Source: a virus (Duplodnaviria; Heunggongvirae; Uroviricota; Caudoviricetes). Taken from it: a DNA stretch of 34,819 nt. Positions 1 through 32,405 of this stretch are shown here, piece after piece. The position numbers were made by a program, and so were the translations under genes. Position 1 is the stretch's first letter; each line of letters opens with the position of its first letter. The notes under the pieces are model-generated. The model saw nothing but the letters and a program-made list of their open reading frames with translations. It was not told the DNA's origin and did no database searches. The DNA lies in IMG/VR virus record IMGVR_UViG_2693429713_000015; one strand, given 5' to 3'.

Positions 1-646
<646 letters not shown>

Positions 647-649
647 AGC

Positions 650-1286
<637 letters not shown>

Positions 1287-1287
1287 T

Positions 1288-1344
<57 letters not shown>

Positions 1345-1373
1345 CAGAACTCGCGCCAGCCTGATTGCAGATA

Positions 1374-1763
1374 TTACTCTTTTTTCTCCGTATCTGCATC
1401 GGGTTCATCAGCAAATAGCTTGCCCTGCATCCGATCCAGTTCTTCTTTTCTTACCCGCTTAACCACGCTGTAGACCCACTGAAGCGAAACACCAAATTTG
1501 CGGGCCAGTTCGTGGTGGTTGCGTCCGTTAAACTCCCTGAAGATTTCCCGGTCGCGCTGACTGACCTTCCATACCATGCCCATCGGGAAATAAACGTTTT
1601 GCCCGCCCCAGACCTGCATCATTCGGTTCGCGACGGCCTGACCAATCTGGTCGGCAACTTCGGGCTCAATATCAATAATCTCGCGAACGGTCTCAGAGGT
1701 ATGCTGTGCCAGTTCCACCAGGAGTTCCGGCCCCTTACTTCGAAACTGATTCAGGTCGCTCAT
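1374..1763 (-). CDS. Mor/C-family transcriptional activator (middle/late gene activator)
   Basis: 129 aa; GGQNVYFPMG...REIFREFNGRNHHELARKFGVSLQWVYSVVKRVRKEE matches the Mor/C activator pattern; last gene of the leftward operon, as mor is in Mu. Confidence 0.75.
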   Translation of the reverse strand: MSDLNQFRSKGPELLVELAQHTSETVREIIDIEPEVADQIGQAVANRMMQVWGGQNVYFPMGMVWKVSQRDREIFREFNGRNHHELARKFGVSLQWVYSVVKRVRKEELDRMQGKLFADEPDADTEKKE

Positions 1764-2184
1764 GTTTGACTCCCGCAGCTCTGCGCTGCCACTTCTTCAG
1801 TTTCTCAATAACACTGCTTGCCTGTTCAGTACTGAGCCAGCGCAGGGCGCTGATGCCCGTTTCCCGCTTGATCCACCTCGCTAATGCATTTTCTGAACGG
1901 TCACGAACAATGCCGGCAGCAGCCATTTCAAGCCATAGCGCACGAATTTTCCTGGACTGCGGATGGTTATCCAGCGGTAAACCGGAGCTGGCTTTTCTGG
2001 CTGGTTTAACGCGAAAGCCTTTCTTTTTCATGGATTCCAGCACGCAGTTTAGTTGTGTGGTATCCATTCCTTTGGTTGAGGCTTTACCGGTCAGCCCCTG
2101 TAACATCTGGCGGTAGGTGTCTTCATCCATACCCAGTTCATTACGGGCAATATGGATAAGCTGTATCAGGCGTTTTTTCTGCAT
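1735..2184 (-). CDS. GemA-like protein (Mu gp16 family)
   Basis: 149 aa; N-terminus MQKKRLIQLIHIARNELGMDEDTYRQML typical of the GemA family; AGGAG RBS 5 nt upstream of ATG at 2184; sits immediately upstream of mor as in Mu. Confidence 0.7.
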   Translation of the reverse strand: MQKKRLIQLIHIARNELGMDEDTYRQMLQGLTGKASTKGMDTTQLNCVLESMKKKGFRVKPARKASSGLPLDNHPQSRKIRALWLEMAAAGIVRDRSENALARWIKRETGISALRWLSTEQASSVIEKLKKWQRRAAGVKHERPESVSK

Positions 2185-2612: not shown

Positions 2613-3292
2613 CTGGCCTCCAGTTTCTGTTGTTCCTGCCCACTGACCGGGCGGTGCAGTCTGACGTTCTGCCCTTCACGAAACCCCGCATAGCGCGAGG
2701 CGTCGCCATTGCGGCTTCTTCCCGGTTTACGCGCCCTGGTGGTTTGCGTCTGCGGGTATTTATGTTCCAGCCACTGCTGCATCAGTTCACGCTCATCATC
2801 GGTCAGGGCAAAGGACTGTATTTCACTGATAACGGCCAGCACCCAGCCTTCGGCAAACTGGTCTCCACGGCTGGTGCGGGTGGCGGTTTTTATTCTTTTG
2901 TTCTGTGCACTGATATACTGCTGACGCGCCTTTTTCAGCTGACGGGCCAGCACTTCCCAGGTGTATGCAGCCAGTGCCGCACGTTCCCGGTTGCCGTAGA
3001 ACCCCACAGACGGATGCGTGCCGGGGTGAATGATGGAGTTAACACCAAATACCTCGCGGATGATGTTCATCAGGCCCAGCATGTAGCGCGGTGGACGGAG
3101 ACTGCCTGTCGGCCAGTAGTGACTGATGGTTTCATCAATATCACTCATAGCAATGTCGGAATGTGTGATGCCGTGAACATCCATCAGTTTACGGGCTCGG
3201 CACAGTGCCAGAGCGGCCTCGTGCGGGTTGCCGGATGCGGCCAGCGCCAGCAACTTTTTCAGTTTCTCAATGTGTTTATTCTGGTCTGTCAT
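2609..3292 (-). CDS. DUF2786-like early protein
   Basis: Likely start is ATG at 3292 (MTDQNKHIEKLKKLLALAASGNPHEAALALCRARKLM...), overlapping the upstream stop by ATGA; N-terminal helix pair resembles the DUF2786 signature (from memory). Confidence 0.5.
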   Translation of the reverse strand: MTDQNKHIEKLKKLLALAASGNPHEAALALCRARKLMDVHGITHSDIAMSDIDETISHYWPTGSLRPPRYMLGLMNIIREVFGVNSIIHPGTHPSVGFYGNRERAALAAYTWEVLARQLKKARQQYISAQNKRIKTATRTSRGDQFAEGWVLAVISEIQSFALTDDERELMQQWLEHKYPQTQTTRARKPGRSRNGDASRYAGFREGQNVRLHRPVSGQEQQKLEAR

Positions 3293-8177: not shown

Positions 8178-8495
8178 TTATCCGATTCTGGCGGCAATTT
8201 TTCTGGCGAGGTCGCACAGTGTTTCGCCATCGCAGGTTTTCACCACGGTATTTACCGGTTGCGGTGCAACTACCGGGCGTAATGCTGACTGATTCTGCAG
8301 ACGTCTTATCTGCTGCATCAGCATCACCTCCATCGTCAGTACAAACGGGTGCGTCTCCTGTGCGGGTACGCAGATTTCACCGGAAGGGGTCACCACGCGG
8401 AAACCCTGCACCATCTCCGGCAGCAGATTACACAGTGCGTGCCCCAGTGCCTCCGGGCTGTCCATCAGGGTATTTTGTGTGTTATTCGTATTCAT
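8178..8495 (-). CDS. Hypothetical early protein (105 aa)
   Basis: ORF within the early operon; no recognised motif. Confidence 0.45.
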   Translation of the reverse strand: MNTNNTQNTLMDSPEALGHALCNLLPEMVQGFRVVTPSGEICVPAQETHPFVLTMEVMLMQQIRRLQNQSALRPVVAPQPVNTVVKTCDGETLCDLARKIAARIG

Positions 8496-9415
8496 TACTG
8501 CATATCCTCCGGTCGGTTGATTTCAGGTTCCGGTTCGGTCAGCCAGGCGGGGGCATCGTTACCCGATGGAGCGGCCTCAAGGTCAAACGTCTCACGTAAT
8601 GCATGAACACTGCGTTCAATCTGGCAGACCAGACCGGCCATGAAATCTCTGGGGGTATCGATCATGTTTTTGGTGCAGTATTCACACAGGGTCTCAAAAA
8701 CACTGGACAGCCGGACGGCGATAGCCGATTCGGCCTCAACCGCTAATGCCGTCACTTCCGCCCGCAATTTTTTCAGTTCTTCGTCTGGCGGCGGAGGTTG
8801 CAGGCGCGATTTCTTCTCCAGTTTTGTGGCCAGTTCGTTGATTTTTTCGTCCTTTCCGGCAAGCACCTGTTGCTGAGCTGCGTTGGTTTCGCGCGCTTCA
8901 CGCAGGGCGGCCTTCAGTTCGCGGCTGGTCATGCGATCAATATCATCAAGCGTTGCACCGGCGACGGTTCCACCATCAGCTAATGCGTCGAGTTCTTCGT
9001 CATCCAGAACCATCAGTTCATATAACTTGGTTTTTCCCAAAACGCTCAGCGCTGAGCGTTTTGGCTGTTCATCTCCATTGCCGAGAAATTTCACGCTGGC
9101 CTGCATCATGCGACGAGCTACCTGTGGTGCTAATCCGAGGTCGTTTTCCAGAATATTTGTGAAATCACCATGCGGTTCATTTTCTTTTAAGATGATCAGC
9201 CGCTTACCCGCTTCCAACATAGATTCAGCACTCTGCGCCATATAAAAACGTGCTTCGTGAACGATGCGTTCACGTTCATAAGGCAGTCCATCACCAAACT
9301 GCTGCATGATCTCCATGCGATGCTGTGTCATGGCATTCAGGCTGACGTTGAGATCATCCGACAGCGGTACATCGGCGTTCAGTTCAGTGTTAATCGGTGA
9401 TTTGGTACGTCCCAT
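8495..9415 (-). CDS. Hypothetical coiled-coil early protein (306 aa)
   Basis: Long ORF with an acidic/coiled-coil central region (ELKAALREARETNAAQQQVLAGKDEKINELATKLEKK); function unknown. Confidence 0.5.
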   Translation of the reverse strand: MGRTKSPINTELNADVPLSDDLNVSLNAMTQHRMEIMQQFGDGLPYERERIVHEARFYMAQSAESMLEAGKRLIILKENEPHGDFTNILENDLGLAPQVARRMMQASVKFLGNGDEQPKRSALSVLGKTKLYELMVLDDEELDALADGGTVAGATLDDIDRMTSRELKAALREARETNAAQQQVLAGKDEKINELATKLEKKSRLQPPPPDEELKKLRAEVTALAVEAESAIAVRLSSVFETLCEYCTKNMIDTPRDFMAGLVCQIERSVHALRETFDLEAAPSGNDAPAWLTEPEPEINRPEDMQ

Positions 9416-9786: not shown

Positions 9787-9975
9787 TTAGGCCGCCTGAG
9801 CTGTTGATTTCAGTCCCAACTTCACGGCGATTTCATGGGATTTACCGTAACGGGCTTTGGTCTGCCCGTTGAGAACGCGGTATACCTCATTGCGGTTGTA
9901 GCCGTTTTCTTCTGCCCAGCGGGTGAAAGTGATCCCGCGCTGGCGGAAGAGAGCTTTGACTTGTTCTGCAGTCAT
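9787..9975 (-). CDS. Ner-like small DNA-binding protein (first early gene)
   Basis: 62 aa; AAGGAG RBS 6 nt before ATG at 9975; layout parallels Mu Ner; divergent from the repressor. Confidence 0.6.
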   Translation of the reverse strand: MTAEQVKALFRQRGITFTRWAEENGYNRNEVYRVLNGQTKARYGKSHEIAVKLGLKSTAQAA

Positions 9976-10068: not shown

Positions 10069-10425
10069 ATGAGCAAAGATATAGGAGAGCGCGTTATTTC
10101 TGTGAGGAAGAAAGCAGGGTTGAACCAGAGAGAATTTGCAGCTCGTTTAGGTATTTCTAATGGTGGTATCAGTCAGATTGAAAATGGAAAGGCGATGCCT
10201 GGAGGGGAGTTTCTGTTAAAGATGCATCAAGAGTTTAATGTTGATGTAAATTGGTTGCTCACTGGAATGAGCACAGATGGTATGACTAGAAACCAGAATC
10301 AAATTTCCCCAGAAAAACAAAAACTAATAGATACTTTTGACGACATGACACCAGACCAACAACGCTCATTTCTTGAGATTGGGCGATTCTATACTCAGCC
10401 AAAACCAGGAAAAATCGCAGGCTGA
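10069..10425 (+). CDS. XRE-family HTH repressor (c-repressor analogue)
   Basis: 118 aa; N-terminal HTH (LNQREFAARLGISNGGISQIENGK); divergent from the early operon; no peptidase domain. Confidence 0.8.
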   Translation: MSKDIGERVISVRKKAGLNQREFAARLGISNGGISQIENGKAMPGGEFLLKMHQEFNVDVNWLLTGMSTDGMTRNQNQISPEKQKLIDTFDDMTPDQQRSFLEIGRFYTQPKPGKIAG

Positions 10426-10510
10426 TACTGACCCGGACACAAAGGACAGGTGGTTGATCTGGATGCTTTCAGAAAACATCGCCAGTGACATAGTGGAAGT
10501 TGTTTGGTTT

Positions 10511-10543
10511 ACCGGAAAGCATTGTGCTTTCCGGTTTTGTTTC
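10511..10543 (+). terminator. Intrinsic terminator downstream of the repressor gene
   Basis: 10-bp stem accggaaagc / gctttccggt, loop attgt, followed by TTTGTTTC. Confidence 0.6.
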
Positions 10544-11306
10544 AGAAGTTGCAGATTAGCAGTTCACGGCGCGGCGTGGGTTTACCCGCCAGACTGTAGT
10601 TGATATTCACTGTCTGTATGTTCAGTCCAGTGAACACCTCGCGCATCTGCGGGATGTCGTTCACCGAAATTATCATTTTTCCTCTGATGCACCGGGCCAG
10701 CTCTGCCAGCCGCGAGTAGTTCCCTTCAGGAAAATCCACACCATAGCCTTCCGTACCCAGGTACGGTGGGTCGCAGTAGAACAGCGTGTGCGGACGATCA
10801 TAACGCTCAATGCACTGTTGCCAGTCCATGTGTTCTATGACTGTTCTGGAAAGCCGCAGGTGTGCCGCTGACAGTTCTTCTTCAATACGTAGCAGGTTGA
10901 AGCGTGGCGGGGATGTGGTGGAGGTACCGAAGCTGTGCTCTGCCACCTTGCCGCCAAACGCCTGCTTCTGAAGGTAGTAGAACCGTGCCGCACGCTGGAT
11001 ATCCGTCAGTGTTTCTTCCGGGGTGATCTGCAGCCATTTGTAGATCTGACGGCTGACCAGCGCCCATTTGAACTGGCGGACAAATTCTTCCAGGTGATGC
11101 TTTACCACCCGGTACAGATTCACCAGTTCACCGTTGATATCATTGATGACTTCGATCTTGCCGGGTGTCTTAAGAAAATAGAGCGCTGCTGCCCCACAAA
11201 ACGGCTCCACATAACATTCATGCGCCGGAAACAGCGGCAGAATGTGTTTTGCAAGGCGGCGTTTGCCACCAATCCACGGCACGATGGGTAATGTCTGCAT
11301 TTTCAT
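10542..11306 (-). CDS. Dam-family (D12 class) N6-adenine DNA methyltransferase
   Basis: DPPY catalytic motif; N-terminal VPWIGGKRRL AdoMet-binding-like motif; likely start is ATG at 11306 (MKMQTLP...) rather than the ORF-track start at 11396. Confidence 0.8.
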   Translation of the reverse strand: MKMQTLPIVPWIGGKRRLAKHILPLFPAHECYVEPFCGAAALYFLKTPGKIEVINDINGELVNLYRVVKHHLEEFVRQFKWALVSRQIYKWLQITPEETLTDIQRAARFYYLQKQAFGGKVAEHSFGTSTTSPPRFNLLRIEEELSAAHLRLSRTVIEHMDWQQCIERYDRPHTLFYCDPPYLGTEGYGVDFPEGNYSRLAELARCIRGKMIISVNDIPQMREVFTGLNIQTVNINYSLAGKPTPRRELLICNF

Positions 11307-11410
11307 AATCTGCAAGCCTTTTACAATTATTAAAAAATATGGCAGTCTGGTCAGGTCTCGCGAGACTGACTGAACCTTGGTCGGCTCACAGCGCATTCCT
11401 GTGGGGCGAT

Positions 11411-11450
11411 GACCAGCCCGGCTTTCGGGTGCCGGGCTGGTCGTTCTTTC
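11411..11450 (+). terminator. Plus-strand terminator-like hairpin with no obvious plus-strand gene upstream
   Basis: Perfect 12-bp stem gaccagcccggc / gccgggctggtc, 8-nt loop, followed by GTTCTTTC; the minus-strand flank is not U-rich. Confidence 0.4.
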
Positions 11451-11496
11451 ATGATGCGGCAGGGATGGCGGGATTTCTGTTAATGTGGTTTAGGGA

Positions 11497-11712
11497 TTAT
11501 CCGGGGCGATTTTCTGACCTTATCCGGTCCAGGGCATAAGTAATACCTTCTGCAAAAACAGAAGTATCAAACTGCTTTTGTATTCCCTGAAAATGAAAAG
11601 CGGCACGACAGACACTCAGTTCTCCGCGGTATAACCGGATAATATCTTCCAGAACATTGTTCACTGCTTCAGCACGGCGCTGATGTTCTGTTAACGTTAA
11701 TCGGGGATTCAT
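11497..11712 (-). CDS. Hypothetical protein (71 aa)
   Basis: AAGGAG RBS 6 nt upstream of ATG at 11712; predicted helical, no recognised motif. Confidence 0.45.
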   Translation of the reverse strand: MNPRLTLTEHQRRAEAVNNVLEDIIRLYRGELSVCRAAFHFQGIQKQFDTSVFAEGITYALDRIRSENRPG

Positions 11713-11713
11713 G

Positions 11714-12115
11714 ATGCACTCCTTAAATGATGATTTTTATGTACTCACCGGCAAAATATTCTGCCGATTACTGAACACGCATCCGGCACCTCAGGTTTTG
11801 ATTTATTCTGGTTTTTTCGATATCCCGGACCAGGTTGATCACGACCAGAAAAAGTGCCGGTGTTTTATTGATACGCTGATATGGCTTCGGGATAACAGCT
11901 ATATTCGTTACTCTCAGTTGCTGGCTGTGGGAGCGGCTGATGTCGTCCTCACGGAAAAAACGCTCTGTCTGCTCAATGCCATGCCGACCTTTCTGCAGCC
12001 CCGGCCCGTACCATTTAAAGAGTCACTTCTGGATGCAGTAAAAACCGGTGAAAATGCAGTCATCGCTGAATGCGTATCCCGGATTATGCGTTACGTGTTT
12101 AATGAACGTAAGTGA
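11714..12115 (+). CDS. Hypothetical protein (about 133 aa), uncertain
   Basis: 405-nt ORF filling the gap between two minus-strand genes; weak GGGGA RBS; start is back-to-back with the 71-aa gene start and its 3' end overlaps the P-loop gene by 25 nt. Confidence 0.35.
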   Translation: MHSLNDDFYVLTGKIFCRLLNTHPAPQVLIYSGFFDIPDQVDHDQKKCRCFIDTLIWLRDNSYIRYSQLLAVGAADVVLTEKTLCLLNAMPTFLQPRPVPFKESLLDAVKTGENAVIAECVSRIMRYVFNERK

Positions 12116-12819
12116 GGTTTATCCGCTGTCTGCATAATCCCGATAGCCAGTGCGAGGGGAAGTAATTCCGGGGAAACTCTTTCAAACAGCGATGCCCATT
12201 CTCCTCTCGCCATCACTCTGTCCAGCCCGCCCTCCAGTTGCATTTCAGCAATCTTCCTGATTTCCCGGAACAACGCCGCTTTGATCTCTTCATGCTCAGC
12301 TTTATTTTCCGGTGTCAGAAGGTATTCGTCGAAGAACCGGGGAGGCTGGTTAATCGGGATGTGTTCCTGTTTGCCGTACTTCGGGGACGAACAACATTCT
12401 GTTGACTGACCAGTGAGTTTACGTAACTCCTTCATGAGCAGCTCCTGATCGTAAACTGTCATCAGTGCCGCAATGGTGGCATGCAGTGCATCGGGCAGTA
12501 TCCAGGGTTGCCGGCCCGTGGGGCATATAACATCCAGCAGCTCATTCGTCCGACAGATACGCTCCTCGCCGTATGACAACAGGCCCTGTCCCGTGTATTC
12601 CTCCAGCCTGATCACTGTGCCAGCCCGTGGTTTCTGCCATGTGCTCAGATCATCCCCACTCATACGGCGCTCACCGTCCACGTCTGCGGCGTCGACAATG
12701 ACGCTGTTTCCGAATTCCTGTTTCACCACTTCCTCTATTCGCGCCAGTACGTAACTTTTACCGCTGCCCACAGGACCGGACACGGTGACAGTGATGACCG
12801 GATTCAGTGTCTGCGTCAT
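12091..12819 (-). CDS. P-loop NTPase of unknown function (242 aa)
   Basis: Walker A GPVGSGKS at residues 15-22; possible Walker B VIVDAADVDG; GAGGAG RBS 8 nt upstream of ATG at 12819; C-terminal about 150 aa unrecognised. Confidence 0.6.
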   Translation of the reverse strand: MTQTLNPVITVTVSGPVGSGKSYVLARIEEVVKQEFGNSVIVDAADVDGERRMSGDDLSTWQKPRAGTVIRLEEYTGQGLLSYGEERICRTNELLDVICPTGRQPWILPDALHATIAALMTVYDQELLMKELRKLTGQSTECCSSPKYGKQEHIPINQPPRFFDEYLLTPENKAEHEEIKAALFREIRKIAEMQLEGGLDRVMARGEWASLFERVSPELLPLALAIGIMQTADKPHLRSLNT

Positions 12820-12949
12820 ATCGTATTCTCCTCTGTGAATAATTCATCGTTTATCCTGCACATCCCGTATCCCCGGCTCTCTTAACGCGCTTTAAAATCC
12901 TTCGCGCCCTGTATTTGTGATGCTGTCTCCACCAGATAAGGAGACACAC

Positions 12950-13300
12950 ATGAAAAAACTGAAAAAATTCATTCCCCCTGTTAAAAAACCTCGCCTCAGC
13001 GGCTGGCTGCTGACCTCAGTGCTGTTGCTGGGCACCATCGCTCTGGTCTCACCACAGCAGCTGCCTGTTGTGATCTACAAGCTGGCACTCATCACGCTGG
13101 CAGCAGTGCTGGGTTACTGGCTTGACCGTTCGCTCTTCCCCAAAGCCCGTCCCGGTCAGTACCTGAAACATGACGACAGGCTGATGGCTGAAGGGCGTTT
13201 CCCGGTACAGACCGGCCTTCACCTGGTGTTTTCTGCTGCGTTAATCCGCCGTGCACTGATTGTTGCAGCGGTCTGCCTGGCTGTTGCGATGGGGCTTTAA
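12950..13300 (+). CDS. Putative holin (three predicted TM segments)
   Basis: ATG at 12950 with AAGGAG RBS; three hydrophobic segments; immediately upstream of the endolysin. Confidence 0.55.
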   Translation: MKKLKKFIPPVKKPRLSGWLLTSVLLLGTIALVSPQQLPVVIYKLALITLAAVLGYWLDRSLFPKARPGQYLKHDDRLMAEGRFPVQTGLHLVFSAALIRRALIVAAVCLAVAMGL

Positions 13301-14677: not shown

Positions 14678-15000
14678 CACTGCAGGTTGAATTCTGGACG
14701 GTGGTGAGTTTTCTGCTCACCTTCATGGGGTTTGTGGGAGGGCTCGCCAAATGGTTGTTCAGTAAAACAGAAGAACGCCAGGCGGCACGATTCGCCTCCC
14801 TTGAACAGGCCCTGCAACAATCCGCCTCCAACTGGGGCGAGCTGGAAAAAGAATTTATGCGATTTAAAGCGGATTTACCGCTGAATTATGTCCGTCGAGA
14901 GGATTATATCCGTGGCCAGACAGTCATTGAGGCCAAACTGGACGCGCTTTATAACAAACTGGAAGTGGTACAGCAGTACCGCAATACCGGAGGTCAATAA
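14674..15000 (+). CDS. Single-TM late protein (108 aa)
   Basis: N-terminal TM (FWTVVSFLLTFMGFVGGLA) followed by a coiled-coil tail. Confidence 0.5.
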   Translation: MTLQVEFWTVVSFLLTFMGFVGGLAKWLFSKTEERQAARFASLEQALQQSASNWGELEKEFMRFKADLPLNYVRREDYIRGQTVIEAKLDALYNKLEVVQQYRNTGGQ

Positions 15001-26239: not shown

Positions 26240-26336
26240 CATCACAGGGGCTCCGGCCCCTTCTTCTTAATCTCCTTTAATATCCGTCACGCGCTTCTCC
26301 CGACATACTGCCCTGAACTTACACAGGAGCACAATC

Positions 26337-32351: not shown

Positions 32352-32405
32352 GCTTTTTAAACGCCTTTAATATCAGCGTTCCCGCACGGGGGCAATACTG
32401 CCCCC

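What the first reader, a model, noticed from the sequence alone, without database searches (positions are those of the whole stretch)
11320..11450. Strong plus-strand intrinsic terminator and a 12-bp palindrome with no plus-strand gene to terminate
A perfect 12-bp GC-rich stem (11411-11442) followed by GTTCTTTC reads as a terminator only on the plus strand, yet the nearest upstream plus-strand gene is the repressor, which has its own terminator at 10511-10543. A perfect palindrome GTCTCGCGAGAC (11355-11366) lies just upstream, about 50 bp from the Dam start on the other strand. This could be a small plus-strand RNA, or a regulatory site for the Dam gene with a stop for read-through antisense transcription.
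Basis: seen in the sequence. Interest (0 to 1): 0.45.

Follow-up and report, generated by a model that had tools for sequence, protein, structure and literature searches.

The report
Antisense small RNA gene guarding phage dam
The "orphan terminator" is probably the 3' end of a conserved, folded small RNA of about 95 bases, read opposite to a phage DNA-methylase (dam) gene; it travels with that gene in many phages and most likely restrains its expression.

Summary
There is a perfect 12-bp G+C-rich hairpin at 11411-11442 followed by GTTCTTTC, and a perfect palindrome at 11355-11366. The window is a BcepMu-like transposable prophage, identical here to Escherichia phage PhiKM.

Both features belong to one conserved non-coding element of about 95-120 nt at 11335/11355-~11450 on the + strand. 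It has four helices: a 5' hairpin SL1 (the palindrome) and a three-way junction made of P0, SL2 and SL3 (the hairpin). All four covary. G.U pairs far outnumber A.C pairs, so the folded strand is the plus strand, opposite to dam.

A conserved -10-like hexamer (TGn-TAGGCT / TAGAAT; here TGG-CAGTCT) sits just upstream of SL1. A U/C-rich tract follows P0.

The element lies immediately upstream of, and divergent from, 60 of 70 Dam homologues (65-100% identity) in Mu-like, lambdoid and other phages. Close relatives without dam lack it.

High-GC copies from Burkholderia phages score at Rfam's threshold for ctRNA_pGA1. The window copy does not.

A Mor-box late-promoter geometry predicts a dam mRNA starting at about 11444. 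The RNA would then be antisense to about 90 nt of that leader.

Best reading: a countertranscript-type antisense RNA controlling dam. No transcript data exist.

The parts
10542..11306 (-). dam gene (D12-class N6-adenine DNA methyltransferase, 254 aa), the gene the element is linked to
   Evidence: ORF list. Pfam PF02086 at E = 6e-29. Annotated as DNA adenine methylase in PhiKM and in E. coli genomes.
11316..11322 (-). probable dam ribosome-binding region (AAAAGGC on the minus strand)
   Evidence: GTAAGCCTTTT is conserved in all relatives at a fixed distance from the dam ATG. Inferred, not tested.
11320..11348 (+). predicted promoter of the small RNA: -35 TTTACA (11320-11325), 17-bp spacer ending in TGG (TG at 11340-11341), -10 CAGTCT (11343-11348)
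   Evidence: Across the family the hexamer at this position is TAGGCT, CAGGCT, TAGAAT or TAAAGT. A at position 2 and T at position 6 are invariant, and TGn usually sits upstream. The window's own -10 is weak (2 of 6). An alternative in the window is TTTTCA-16-TACAAT (11300-11327), but it is not conserved in distant relatives. Inferred.
11355..11450 (+). predicted small RNA of about 96 nt. The 5' end is predicted at 11355 (alternative about 11334); the 3' end lies in the U-rich run at 11447-11452
   Evidence: Covariance models R1 and R2 match 11335-11453 at 134.9 and 98.6 bits. The fold has z = -5.0. Covariation is shown. No conserved ORF.
11355..11366 (+). SL1: the palindrome GTCTCGCGAGAC, read as a 5'-terminal hairpin (GUCU-CGCG-AGAC)
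   Evidence: Every family member has a perfect or near-perfect palindrome at this position, each with a different sequence. The 4 inner pairs are 100% paired, all with changes on both sides. Imperfect copies keep U.G on the plus strand (L062, L148, L201, L216, L226).
11372..11375 (+). P0, 5' strand (GAAC; possibly extended by UGA at 11367-11369), followed by junction CUUG at 11376-11379
   Evidence: Pairs with GUUC at 11443-11446. In relatives the pairs are GAGAGC/GCUCUU, CAGGGC/GCCCUG, GACAGC/GCUGUC, GAGGGC/GCCCUC and GGAAGC/GCUUCC. There are 6 pairs, 5 with changes on both sides, 90.5% paired. This helix was not in the model that made the alignment.
11380..11410 (+). SL2: irregular 12-bp hairpin (core CACAG/CUGUG) with loop 11392-11398
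   Evidence: 10 of 12 pairs change on both sides (CACAG/CTGTG, CACTG/CAGTG, CGCAG/CTGCG, CCGTG/CACGG). The loop varies freely in sequence and length. G.U versus A.C cells: 117 to 2.
11411..11442 (+).
   Evidence: Perfect stem. 12 of 13 pairs change on both sides in the wide alignment. G.U versus A.C cells: 44 to 2 in close relatives and 53 to 22 in the wide set.
11443..11452 (+). P0 3' strand (GUUC) followed by the U-rich run UUUCAU; probable termination zone
   Evidence: GTCGTTCTTTCA is invariant in the enterobacterial branch. In all branches the 5 nt after P0 are U/C-rich: UUUCU, UCUCU, UUCUU, UUUUU. Termination itself is not shown.
11444..11493 (-). predicted Mor-dependent dam promoter: dyad box TTAATGTGGTTTAG (11480-11493), 23 nt, -10 CATCAT (11456 down to 11451), start near 11444
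   Evidence: The hexamer CATGAT, CATCCT, CATCAT, CAGTAT or CATTCT always lies 23-24 nt from the box, although the spacer has many unrelated sequences. The same box-23 nt-hexamer geometry precedes holin and two other late gene starts in the window. A Mor gene is present. Inferred.

Best explanation
The hairpin is the 3' stem-loop of a small non-coding RNA gene on the plus strand. Together with the dam gene it forms a mobile two-part cassette.

The RNA is predicted to start at about 11355 from its own sigma-70 promoter (TTTACA-17 bp with TGn-CAGTCT). That promoter lies inside the dam leader region. The RNA folds into a 5' hairpin (the palindrome) plus a three-way junction (P0, SL2, SL3). It is predicted to end at the U-rich run after P0, at about 11448-11452.

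dam is predicted to be transcribed from the other strand, from a Mor-activated late promoter just beyond the hairpin, with a start near 11444. The first ~90 nt of the dam mRNA would then be exactly complementary to the small RNA. In other phages the same target would be made by read-through from the upstream late gene.

The RNA would therefore act like a plasmid countertranscript (ctRNA). It would pair with the dam leader, and its promoter would fire head-on against dam transcription. That would keep the methylase low until strong late transcription overwhelms it.

The terminator also stops the small RNA's own transcription before it reaches the late promoter and the lysis genes.

Shown: the structure, the folded strand, the linkage to dam, and the conservation. 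Inferred: both promoters, the 3' end, and the direction of the effect on dam.
For: 1. Homology with other prophages ends exactly after GTTCTTTCA, and the non-coding block is at least as conserved as dam itself.
2. In 46 distinct close relatives SL3 keeps 98.5% pairing, and 5 pairs change on both sides.
3. In the wide alignment 31 of 35 pairs change on both sides. The covariation score is 0.529, against 0.199 for shuffles and 0.05-0.10 for slid controls. P0 covaries although it was not part of the model that made the alignment.
4. Strand: plus-only G.U versus minus-only A.C cells are 164 to 0 and 44 to 2 in close relatives, and 117 to 2 for SL2 in the wide set.
5. Linkage to dam:
   - The element is found upstream of and divergent from 60 of 70 Dam homologues.
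   - It is absent from 8 dam-less BcepMu-like loci with the same lysis genes.
   - L004 and L063 carry one copy per dam: the intact gene and the 5' remnant each have their own.
6. A -10-like hexamer with invariant A2 and T6, often with TGn, sits 6 nt before SL1 in all branches.
7. The loops are hypervariable, while helices, junction and promoter are conserved. This is as expected for a cis-antisense RNA whose target changes with it.
8. Burkholderia-phage copies score 45.1, 44.9 and 44.4 bits against Rfam RF00236 ctRNA_pGA1, whose gathering score is 45.
9. The Mor-box geometry predicts a dam-strand start next to the hairpin, and the phage has a Mor gene.
Against: - No transcript, 5' end or 3' end has been observed.
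- The window's own -10 (CAGTCT) matches the consensus at only 2 of 6 positions.
- In one branch (L202 type) the palindrome starts right after the hexamer. The predicted start would then fall inside it.
- The U-tract is short and interrupted, and the simple terminator scan did not report the hairpin.
- The predicted RNA does not cover the dam ribosome-binding site; it ends about 35 nt upstream of it. Any effect on translation would have to be indirect.
- An alternative dam promoter, TGcCATATT on the minus strand (11344 down to 11336), may exist in the enterobacterial branch. It would give a dam mRNA that does not overlap the RNA at all.
- The window copy does not match RF00236.
- 10 of 70 Dam loci showed no copy.
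Confidence: 0.6

Rival explanations
1. It is only a plus-strand transcription stop (an insulator). It halts read-through from the repressor gene, or other antisense transcription across dam, before that transcription reaches the late promoter and the holin-endolysin genes. Their expression would kill a lysogen.
For: - In the commonest layout the hairpin ends about 104 nt before the holin ATG and 36 nt before the late-promoter box.
- The repressor is on the same strand upstream.
- Loci of the L005 type have lost most of dam but kept the element.
- The holin ribosome-binding site also has a fold-back hairpin that would silence read-through transcripts. Protection against read-through therefore seems to be selected here.
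Against: - Sister phages with near-identical holin/SLT genes but no dam lack the element.
- In phiE125-type and other phages the element lies between co-directional genes (Rz or a tail-fibre assembly gene, then dam). There is nothing on its strand to protect there.
- A terminator needs neither SL1, SL2, P0 nor a conserved -10-like hexamer, yet all are conserved or covary.
- The U-tract is weak.
Confidence: 0.15
2. It is a trans-acting small RNA, perhaps Hfq- or ProQ-dependent. It would regulate host or other phage mRNAs by imperfect pairing, and would be carried as lysogenic-conversion cargo next to dam.
For: It is a stable fold with its own predicted promoter and a 3' hairpin plus U-rich end. 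Prophage-encoded regulatory small RNAs are common in E. coli (general knowledge).
Against: No single-stranded stretch is conserved across the family. The loops of SL2 and SL3 vary freely, and the conserved bases lie in helices, the junction CYYG and the promoter. The strict position and orientation next to dam in unrelated phage types points to a function in cis. The 3' U-run is short and partly paired in P0.
Confidence: 0.12
3. The functional molecule is on the dam strand or is the DNA itself. Either the structure is a folded 5' leader of the dam mRNA, or the palindrome is an operator for a dimeric regulator of dam, or the DNA is a single-stranded structure or recombination site that mobilises the dam cassette.
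For: - The element sits in the dam leader or promoter region.
- SL1 is always a palindrome that includes its centre (TCGA, CGCG, CCGG, TGCA, GTAC), as protein-binding sites and cruciforms are.
- The homology block between phages ends exactly at the element.
- G.T pairs are also tolerated in single-stranded DNA.
Against: - On the dam strand the many G.U pairs become A.C mismatches: 117 to 2 in SL2 and 164 to 0 in close relatives.
- The palindrome sequence is not conserved even between relatives whose Dam proteins are about 81-86% identical to the window's, and no DNA-binding protein is co-conserved.
- The L170 type replaces the inner palindrome with an 18-nt A/T-rich loop but keeps the outer stem.
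- The phages involved use different replication modes, which argues against an origin-type single-stranded signal.
- The conserved -10-like hexamer on the plus strand is left unexplained.
Confidence: 0.08

Closest known systems
Rfam RF00236 ctRNA_pGA1 (countertranscript RNA of rolling-circle plasmid pGA1, antisense to the rep mRNA leader)
   Same: - Both are small RNAs of about 80-100 nt transcribed from a promoter inside the leader of the downstream gene, in the opposite direction.
- Both have two consecutive hairpins followed by a U-rich tail.
- The SL2 + SL3 + tail of the Burkholderia-phage copies align end to end with the model at 45.1, 44.9 and 44.4 bits; the gathering score is 45.
   Different: - This element is attached to a phage dam gene, not to a plasmid rep gene.
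- It has two extra conserved parts, the 5' hairpin SL1 and the closing helix P0, that are not in the Rfam model.
- The window copy and the other enterobacterial copies do not match the model even at E = 10.
- No similar DNA was found in 72,556 plasmids.
Phage antisense RNAs: P22 sar (arc-ant intercistronic region) and lambda OOP (own knowledge)
   Same: These are short phage-encoded antisense RNAs with their own promoter and intrinsic terminator. They lie in or next to an intercistronic region and oppose a gene whose untimely expression is harmful.
   Different: sar covers the ant ribosome-binding site, and OOP covers the 3' end of cII. This RNA covers only the distal leader of dam. There is no sequence or structural relationship. 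Those RNAs are simple hairpins, not a three-way junction.
Phage Mu com-mom control (own knowledge)
   Same: A DNA-modification gene of a transposable phage is placed under the late activator of the Mor/C family, and is additionally held in check after transcription starts.
   Different: Mu uses the Com protein and Dam/OxyR control of the promoter. Here the second layer would be an antisense RNA. mom and dam are unrelated enzymes.
IS10 RNA-OUT / RNA-IN and other convergent-promoter pairs such as coliphage 186 pR/pL (own knowledge)
   Same: Face-to-face promoters about 90 bp apart give 5'-overlapping transcripts. Control could come from RNA pairing, from transcriptional interference, or from both.
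   Different: The overlap is longer than the 36 bp of IS10, and the RNA fold is different. There is no evidence here that GATC methylation controls either promoter; no GATC was seen when reading 11307-11452.

Membership tests
Rfam RF00236 ctRNA_pGA1 | Covariance-model score at or above the gathering score (45 bits) | tested here: not met
   For the window there was no match at gathering or at E up to 10 in 11000-11900. Homologues linked through models R1 and R2 do reach it or nearly so: L232 45.1, L221 44.9, L236 44.4, L177 35.6 bits.
Rfam RF00236 ctRNA_pGA1 | Antisense to the leader of a plasmid replication-initiator (rep) mRNA | tested here: not met
   The neighbour is a D12-class DNA methyltransferase in phage genomes. 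No plasmid match was found.
Rfam RF00236 ctRNA_pGA1 | Two adjacent hairpins followed by a U-rich 3' tail | tested here: met
   SL2 and SL3 plus a U/C-rich tail, with covariation.
Intrinsic (Rho-independent) terminator | G+C-rich stem with a short loop | tested here: met
   12 perfect pairs, 10 of them G-C, with an 8-nt loop and dG -27.8 kcal/mol.
Intrinsic (Rho-independent) terminator | Uninterrupted U-tract directly after the stem | tested here: inconclusive
   The tail is GUUCUUUCAU, with 5 U in the first 8 bases. It was not reported by the consensus scan. The first 4-6 nt are paired in P0, and a U/C-rich run follows P0 in all branches.
Intrinsic (Rho-independent) terminator | RNA 3' ends mapped in the U-tract | not testable with these tools
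   No Term-seq or RACE data are available.
Cis-encoded antisense RNA | Own promoter on the strand opposite to the target gene | tested here: inconclusive
   The conserved hexamer TAGGCT / TAGAAT / TAAAGT / CAGGCT has invariant A2 and T6 and frequent TGn. In the enterobacterial branch there is a -35 of TTTaCA or TTTgCA. The window hexamer is weak, and no activity has been measured.
Cis-encoded antisense RNA | Overlap with a transcript from the other strand | tested here: inconclusive
   In the BcepMu-like branch, overlap is predicted from the Mor-box promoter geometry, with a start at about 11444. In other phages it is predicted from read-through of the upstream co-directional gene, which ends at the hairpin. 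It has not been observed.
Mor/C-dependent late promoter (for the predicted dam promoter) | Activator gene present; dyad box centred near -43; no -35; the same design upstream of late operons | tested here: met
   - Mor family protein (PF08765, E = 1e-43) at 1374-1763.
- TTAA-N6-TTWA occurs 7 times against 0.87 expected.
- Box-23 nt-GATGCT / CATACT / AATACT precedes the holin and two other gene starts, and box-23 nt-CATCAT points toward dam.
- The hexamer is conserved over variable spacers.
- Activation by Mor was not tested.

The most novel reading that the evidence does not exclude
The most novel reading not excluded is that the four-helix RNA is more than an antisense partner. It could be a dedicated riboregulator of orphan phage Dam methylases. 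For example, the three-way junction might bind and inhibit or retarget the Dam protein, acting as an RNA 'antitoxin' to a mutagenic enzyme. Or it might sense a signal that times methylation of progeny DNA. This would explain why a closed junction with a conserved CYYG linker is kept across Enterobacterales and Burkholderia phages, when a simple antisense hairpin would do. It would also mean that many chromosomal 'ctRNA_pGA1' annotations are in fact this dam-linked RNA.
Probability: 0.1. Interest if true: 0.8.

Novelty: new variant of a known kind. Interest (0 to 1): 0.55.

Why it matters
Orphan Dam methylases are among the commonest accessory genes of temperate phages. They affect restriction evasion, mismatch repair, mutation rate and host gene expression. 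How the phage controls them is largely unknown.

If this RNA is what it appears to be, three things follow:
- A single conserved antisense module accompanies dam through Mu-like, lambdoid and other phages of Enterobacterales and Burkholderia. It is present in about 10% of complete E. coli genomes, including ST131 strains.
- The module gives a directly testable handle on when phage Dam is made.
- Hits to Rfam's plasmid family ctRNA_pGA1 in proteobacterial chromosomes may be misnamed.

The work also yields a concrete map of Mor-dependent late promoters in this phage group, including boxes that appear to work in both directions.

Tried and rejected
1. Small proteins were rejected. The plus-strand ORF 11339-11539 has a stop at codon 4 in most relatives. 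The minus-strand 33-aa ORF (11452-11351) loses its ATG in most relatives.
2. A lambda-Q-like or put-like antitermination leader for the late operon was rejected. The late promoter box and -10 lie downstream of the hairpin, and dam-less phages with the same holin promoter lack the element.
3. A palindrome acting as an operator for the repressor or an HTH protein was rejected. There is no second copy in the window, 12-bp palindromes are as frequent as chance, and the sequence is not conserved.
4. A hammerhead-like core (CUGA...GAA) was considered because of CUGACUGAAC. It was rejected because that sequence is specific to one branch, and Rfam finds no ribozyme.
5. The outer stem of SL1 used in model R1 was dropped. 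It was only 77% paired, and its 3' side belongs to P0.
6. Literature searches found no description of a dam-linked antisense RNA. The search terms covered BcepMu late promoters, prophage methyltransferase antisense RNA, Mu-like prophage small RNAs, ctRNA_pGA1, phiE125 gp27 and Burkholderia small RNAs.
7. Plasmid pGA1 could not be fetched for a direct comparison.
8. The Pantoea stewartii copy that lacks the upstream part turned out to be an IS630-family insertion in a decayed prophage, so it is uninformative.

Full report
**What is in the sequence**

The window is a BcepMu-like transposable phage. Positions 10500-12200 are 100% identical to Escherichia phage PhiKM, genus Bcepmuvirus. In E. coli 81009 the same prophage lies next to ycaL.

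Around the finding the genes are:
- a Ner-like gene (9787-9975, -);
- an HTH repressor (10069-10425, +);
- a hairpin with a T-run (10511-10535);
- dam (10542-11306, -; PF02086);
- 190 bp of non-coding DNA;
- three unannotated cargo ORFs: 71 aa (-), 134 aa (+) and 242 aa (-);
- the late genes, starting with holin (ATG at 12950) and an SLT endolysin.

A perfect 12-bp stem with a short loop is far beyond chance: 2 in the window against 0.02 expected. A perfect 12-bp palindrome is not: 8 against 9.5 expected.

**Conservation defines one element**

Homology with Klebsiella phage KP12 and Escherichia phage Phi06_2974 B covers dam plus 146 bp upstream. It stops precisely after GTTCTTTCA.

The element was found in:
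- 556 of 5,426 complete E. coli genomes;
- 56 IMG/VR contigs;
- 12 further species of Enterobacterales, including Pantoea, Mixta, Buttiauxella, Trabulsiella and Limnobaculum.

The 21-mer GTCTCGCGAGACTGACTGAAC is invariant in 54 of the 56 viral contigs, although the matched Dam proteins fall to about 81% identity. No reading frame is conserved.

**It is an RNA structure on the plus strand**

In 46 distinct close relatives the hairpin SL3 keeps 98.5% pairing. Five of its pairs change on both sides, often through U.G intermediates (C-G to U.G to U-A).

Wobble pairs valid only in a plus-strand RNA far outnumber those valid only on the minus strand. The counts are 44 to 2 in SL3 and 164 to 0 in the neighbouring stem SL2.

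A covariance model built from these sequences (R1) finds diverged copies. In this wide alignment 31 of 35 pairs change on both sides. The covariation score is 0.529, against 0.199 for shuffles and 0.05-0.10 for slid controls.

Four helices emerge:
- **SL1** is the palindrome.
- **P0** is a closing helix. The 4-6 nt before a CYYG junction pair with the first 4-6 nt after SL3. Examples are GAAC/GUUC here, and CAGGGC/GCCCUG, GACAGC/GCUGUC and GAGGGC/GCCCUC elsewhere.
- **SL2** has the core CACAG/CUGUG.

P0 was not in the model that produced the alignment, so its covariation is independent evidence. It also explains why the 'tail' GTTCTTTCA is invariant in this branch.

The loops of SL2 and SL3 vary freely.

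**The element belongs to dam, not to the lysis genes**

In the commonest layout the hairpin ends about 104 nt before the holin ATG. That first suggested an insulator or a late-operon leader. Three results argue against this:
- BcepMu-like phages with near-identical holin/SLT genes but no dam have no copy.
- A search started from the Dam protein found the element immediately upstream of, and always divergent from, 60 of 70 Dam homologues down to 65% identity.
- In those other phages dam follows a co-directional late gene: Rz spanin, a tail-fibre assembly protein, a tail protein or the major capsid protein. That gene's stop codon abuts SL3. An example is Burkholderia phage phiE125, between gp26 (Rz) and gp27 (DNA methyltransferase).

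Loci with two dam copies, one intact and one a 5' remnant, have two elements.

**Ends of the RNA (inferred)**

Six nucleotides before SL1, every branch has a hexamer with invariant A2 and T6. It is TAGGCT, TAGAAT, TAAAGT or CAGGCT, and here CAGTCT. It is usually preceded by TGn.

In the window this gives -35 TTTACA (11320-11325), a 17-bp spacer with TG at 11340-11341, -10 at 11343-11348, and a start at about 11355, the first base of the palindrome. The window also has TTTTCA-16-TACAAT, which would start the RNA at about 11334. That promoter is not conserved in distant relatives.

After P0 all branches have a short U/C-rich run. SL3 stacked on P0 followed by this run is the likely terminator, but it is atypical and was not picked up by the consensus scan. 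The predicted 98-nt RNA folds with z = -5.0.

**The other strand (inferred)**

The phage encodes one Mor/C-family activator. A dyad TTAA-N6-TTWA occurs 7 times in the window against 0.87 expected.

On the plus strand the geometry is box, then 23 nt, then a hexamer:
- GATGCT, followed by the holin start;
- CATACT (box at 26267), followed by a gene start;
- AATACT (box at 32357), followed by a gene start.

The same geometry exists leftward. The box at 11480 is followed by 23 nt and CATCAT, pointing at dam. The box at 12882 is followed by 23 nt and CAGGAT, pointing at the 242-aa ORF.

Across relatives the 23-24-nt spacer toward dam has many unrelated sequences. The hexamer CATGAT, CATCCT, CATCAT, CAGTAT or CATTCT is nevertheless always there, 6-7 nt before the complement of the RNA's tail.

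This predicts a Mor-dependent dam mRNA starting at about 11444. Its first ~90 nt would be the exact complement of the small RNA. In the short layout one box would serve both holin and dam. From memory, Mu's C protein binds TTAT-N6-ATAA centred near -43.5, which is the same design.

**Relation to known families**

Rfam 15 has no match in the window. The Burkholderia-phage copies, however, align end to end over SL2, SL3 and the tail with RF00236 ctRNA_pGA1. They score 45.1, 44.9 and 44.4 bits against a gathering score of 45.

That family is defined by a plasmid countertranscript against the rep leader. It has the same layout: a promoter inside the leader firing backwards, two hairpins and a U-rich end.

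I therefore read the element as working like a ctRNA, but I do not file the window copy as a member of RF00236. It fails the score, it is linked to dam rather than rep, it is on phages, and it has two extra conserved parts (SL1 and P0). No similar DNA exists in 72,556 plasmids.

Literature searches found no description of a dam-linked antisense RNA.

**Mechanism, with confidence**

- That this is a conserved plus-strand structured element linked to dam: high, about 0.9.
- That it is a separate small RNA gene with its own promoter and terminator: about 0.7.
- That it acts in cis against the dam leader, or by head-on promoter interference, to hold dam down until late transcription is strong: about 0.45-0.6. 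This rests on analogy and on inferred promoters.

Three weak points remain. The RNA does not cover the dam ribosome-binding site. The window's -10 is poor. And a possible second dam promoter, TGcCATATT (11344 down to 11336), would give non-overlapping divergent transcripts.

The insulator reading remains possible as a secondary function in this phage group.

**Verdict**

The palindrome is part of that RNA and not a demonstrated protein site.

This is a new variant of a known kind: a countertranscript-type antisense RNA, here with a three-way-junction fold and a consistent partnership with phage dam genes. It is moderately interesting and directly testable.

Noticed in passing
window 12882-12895, 26267-26280, 32357-32370 (and 14864-14877): Dyad boxes TTAA-N6-TTWA occur 7 times against 0.87 expected. 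At three sites the box is followed after exactly 23 nt by GATGCT, CATACT or AATACT and then by a gene start. These are probably the Mor-dependent late promoters of this phage. The site at 14864 lacks a good hexamer.
   Followed up: partly
window 12853-12895: The box upstream of holin also has a leftward hexamer CAGGAT at 23 nt (12858 down to 12853). It is followed by GAGGAG and the ATG of the 242-aa cargo ORF. The box therefore looks bidirectional, as it would be for holin and dam in the short layout.
   Followed up: partly
window 11477-11492 and 12879-12894: Two copies of CTNTTAAYGYNNTTTA (0.05 expected) flank a 1.4-kb cargo block: ORFs of 71 aa (-), 134 aa (+) and 242 aa (-), with no Pfam or PADLOC family. 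In relatives, different cargo sits at exactly this joint, right after GTTTA. The box looks like a hot spot for cargo exchange.
   Followed up: partly
window 12925-12945: GTCTCC (12925-12930) can pair with GGAGAC (12940-12945), which contains the holin Shine-Dalgarno sequence. The predicted late start (about 12931) lies after GTCTCC. Only read-through transcripts from upstream would therefore carry the anti-SD arm, a fold-back inhibition design as in IS10. It is conserved in relatives.
   Followed up: partly
window 9037-9064: A perfect 28-bp palindrome, CCAAAACGCTCAGCGCTGAGCGTTTTGG, lies inside the DUF3102 early gene (8495-9415, -). It is far beyond chance, but with this exact sequence it was found only in near-identical phages. 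Its function is unknown.
   Followed up: partly
window 10511-10535: An 11-bp hairpin lies between the convergent repressor and dam genes. It has a T-run only on the plus strand, so dam has no obvious intrinsic terminator of its own.
   Followed up: no
window 1-1800: The window starts inside the tail-fibre gene and runs straight into the Mor end of the early operon. In the E. coli 81009 prophage, by contrast, host DNA (ycaL) directly flanks the Mor end. The window therefore looks like a circularly permuted phage assembly, as the PhiKM record is, and not an integrated prophage.
   Followed up: partly
L066 5685-6720 (Pantoea stewartii): An IS630-family element is inserted at the TA of GGCTAGTC. 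It separates the RNA's SL1 from its predicted promoter and from dam in a decayed prophage.
   Followed up: yes
L149/L150 about 3118-3241; L005/L045/L061: These are remnants. L149 and L150 keep only the 3' half of SL2 plus SL3, without dam. L005-type loci keep the whole element plus the first ~23 codons of dam, but have lost the rest of the gene.
   Followed up: partly
L004 1910-2028 and 2545-2665: Two diverged copies of the element lie in one prophage, one per dam (an intact gene and a 5' remnant). This shows that dam and the RNA recombine as a unit. The first copy is followed 45 nt later by a plus-strand 126-aa ORF.
   Followed up: partly
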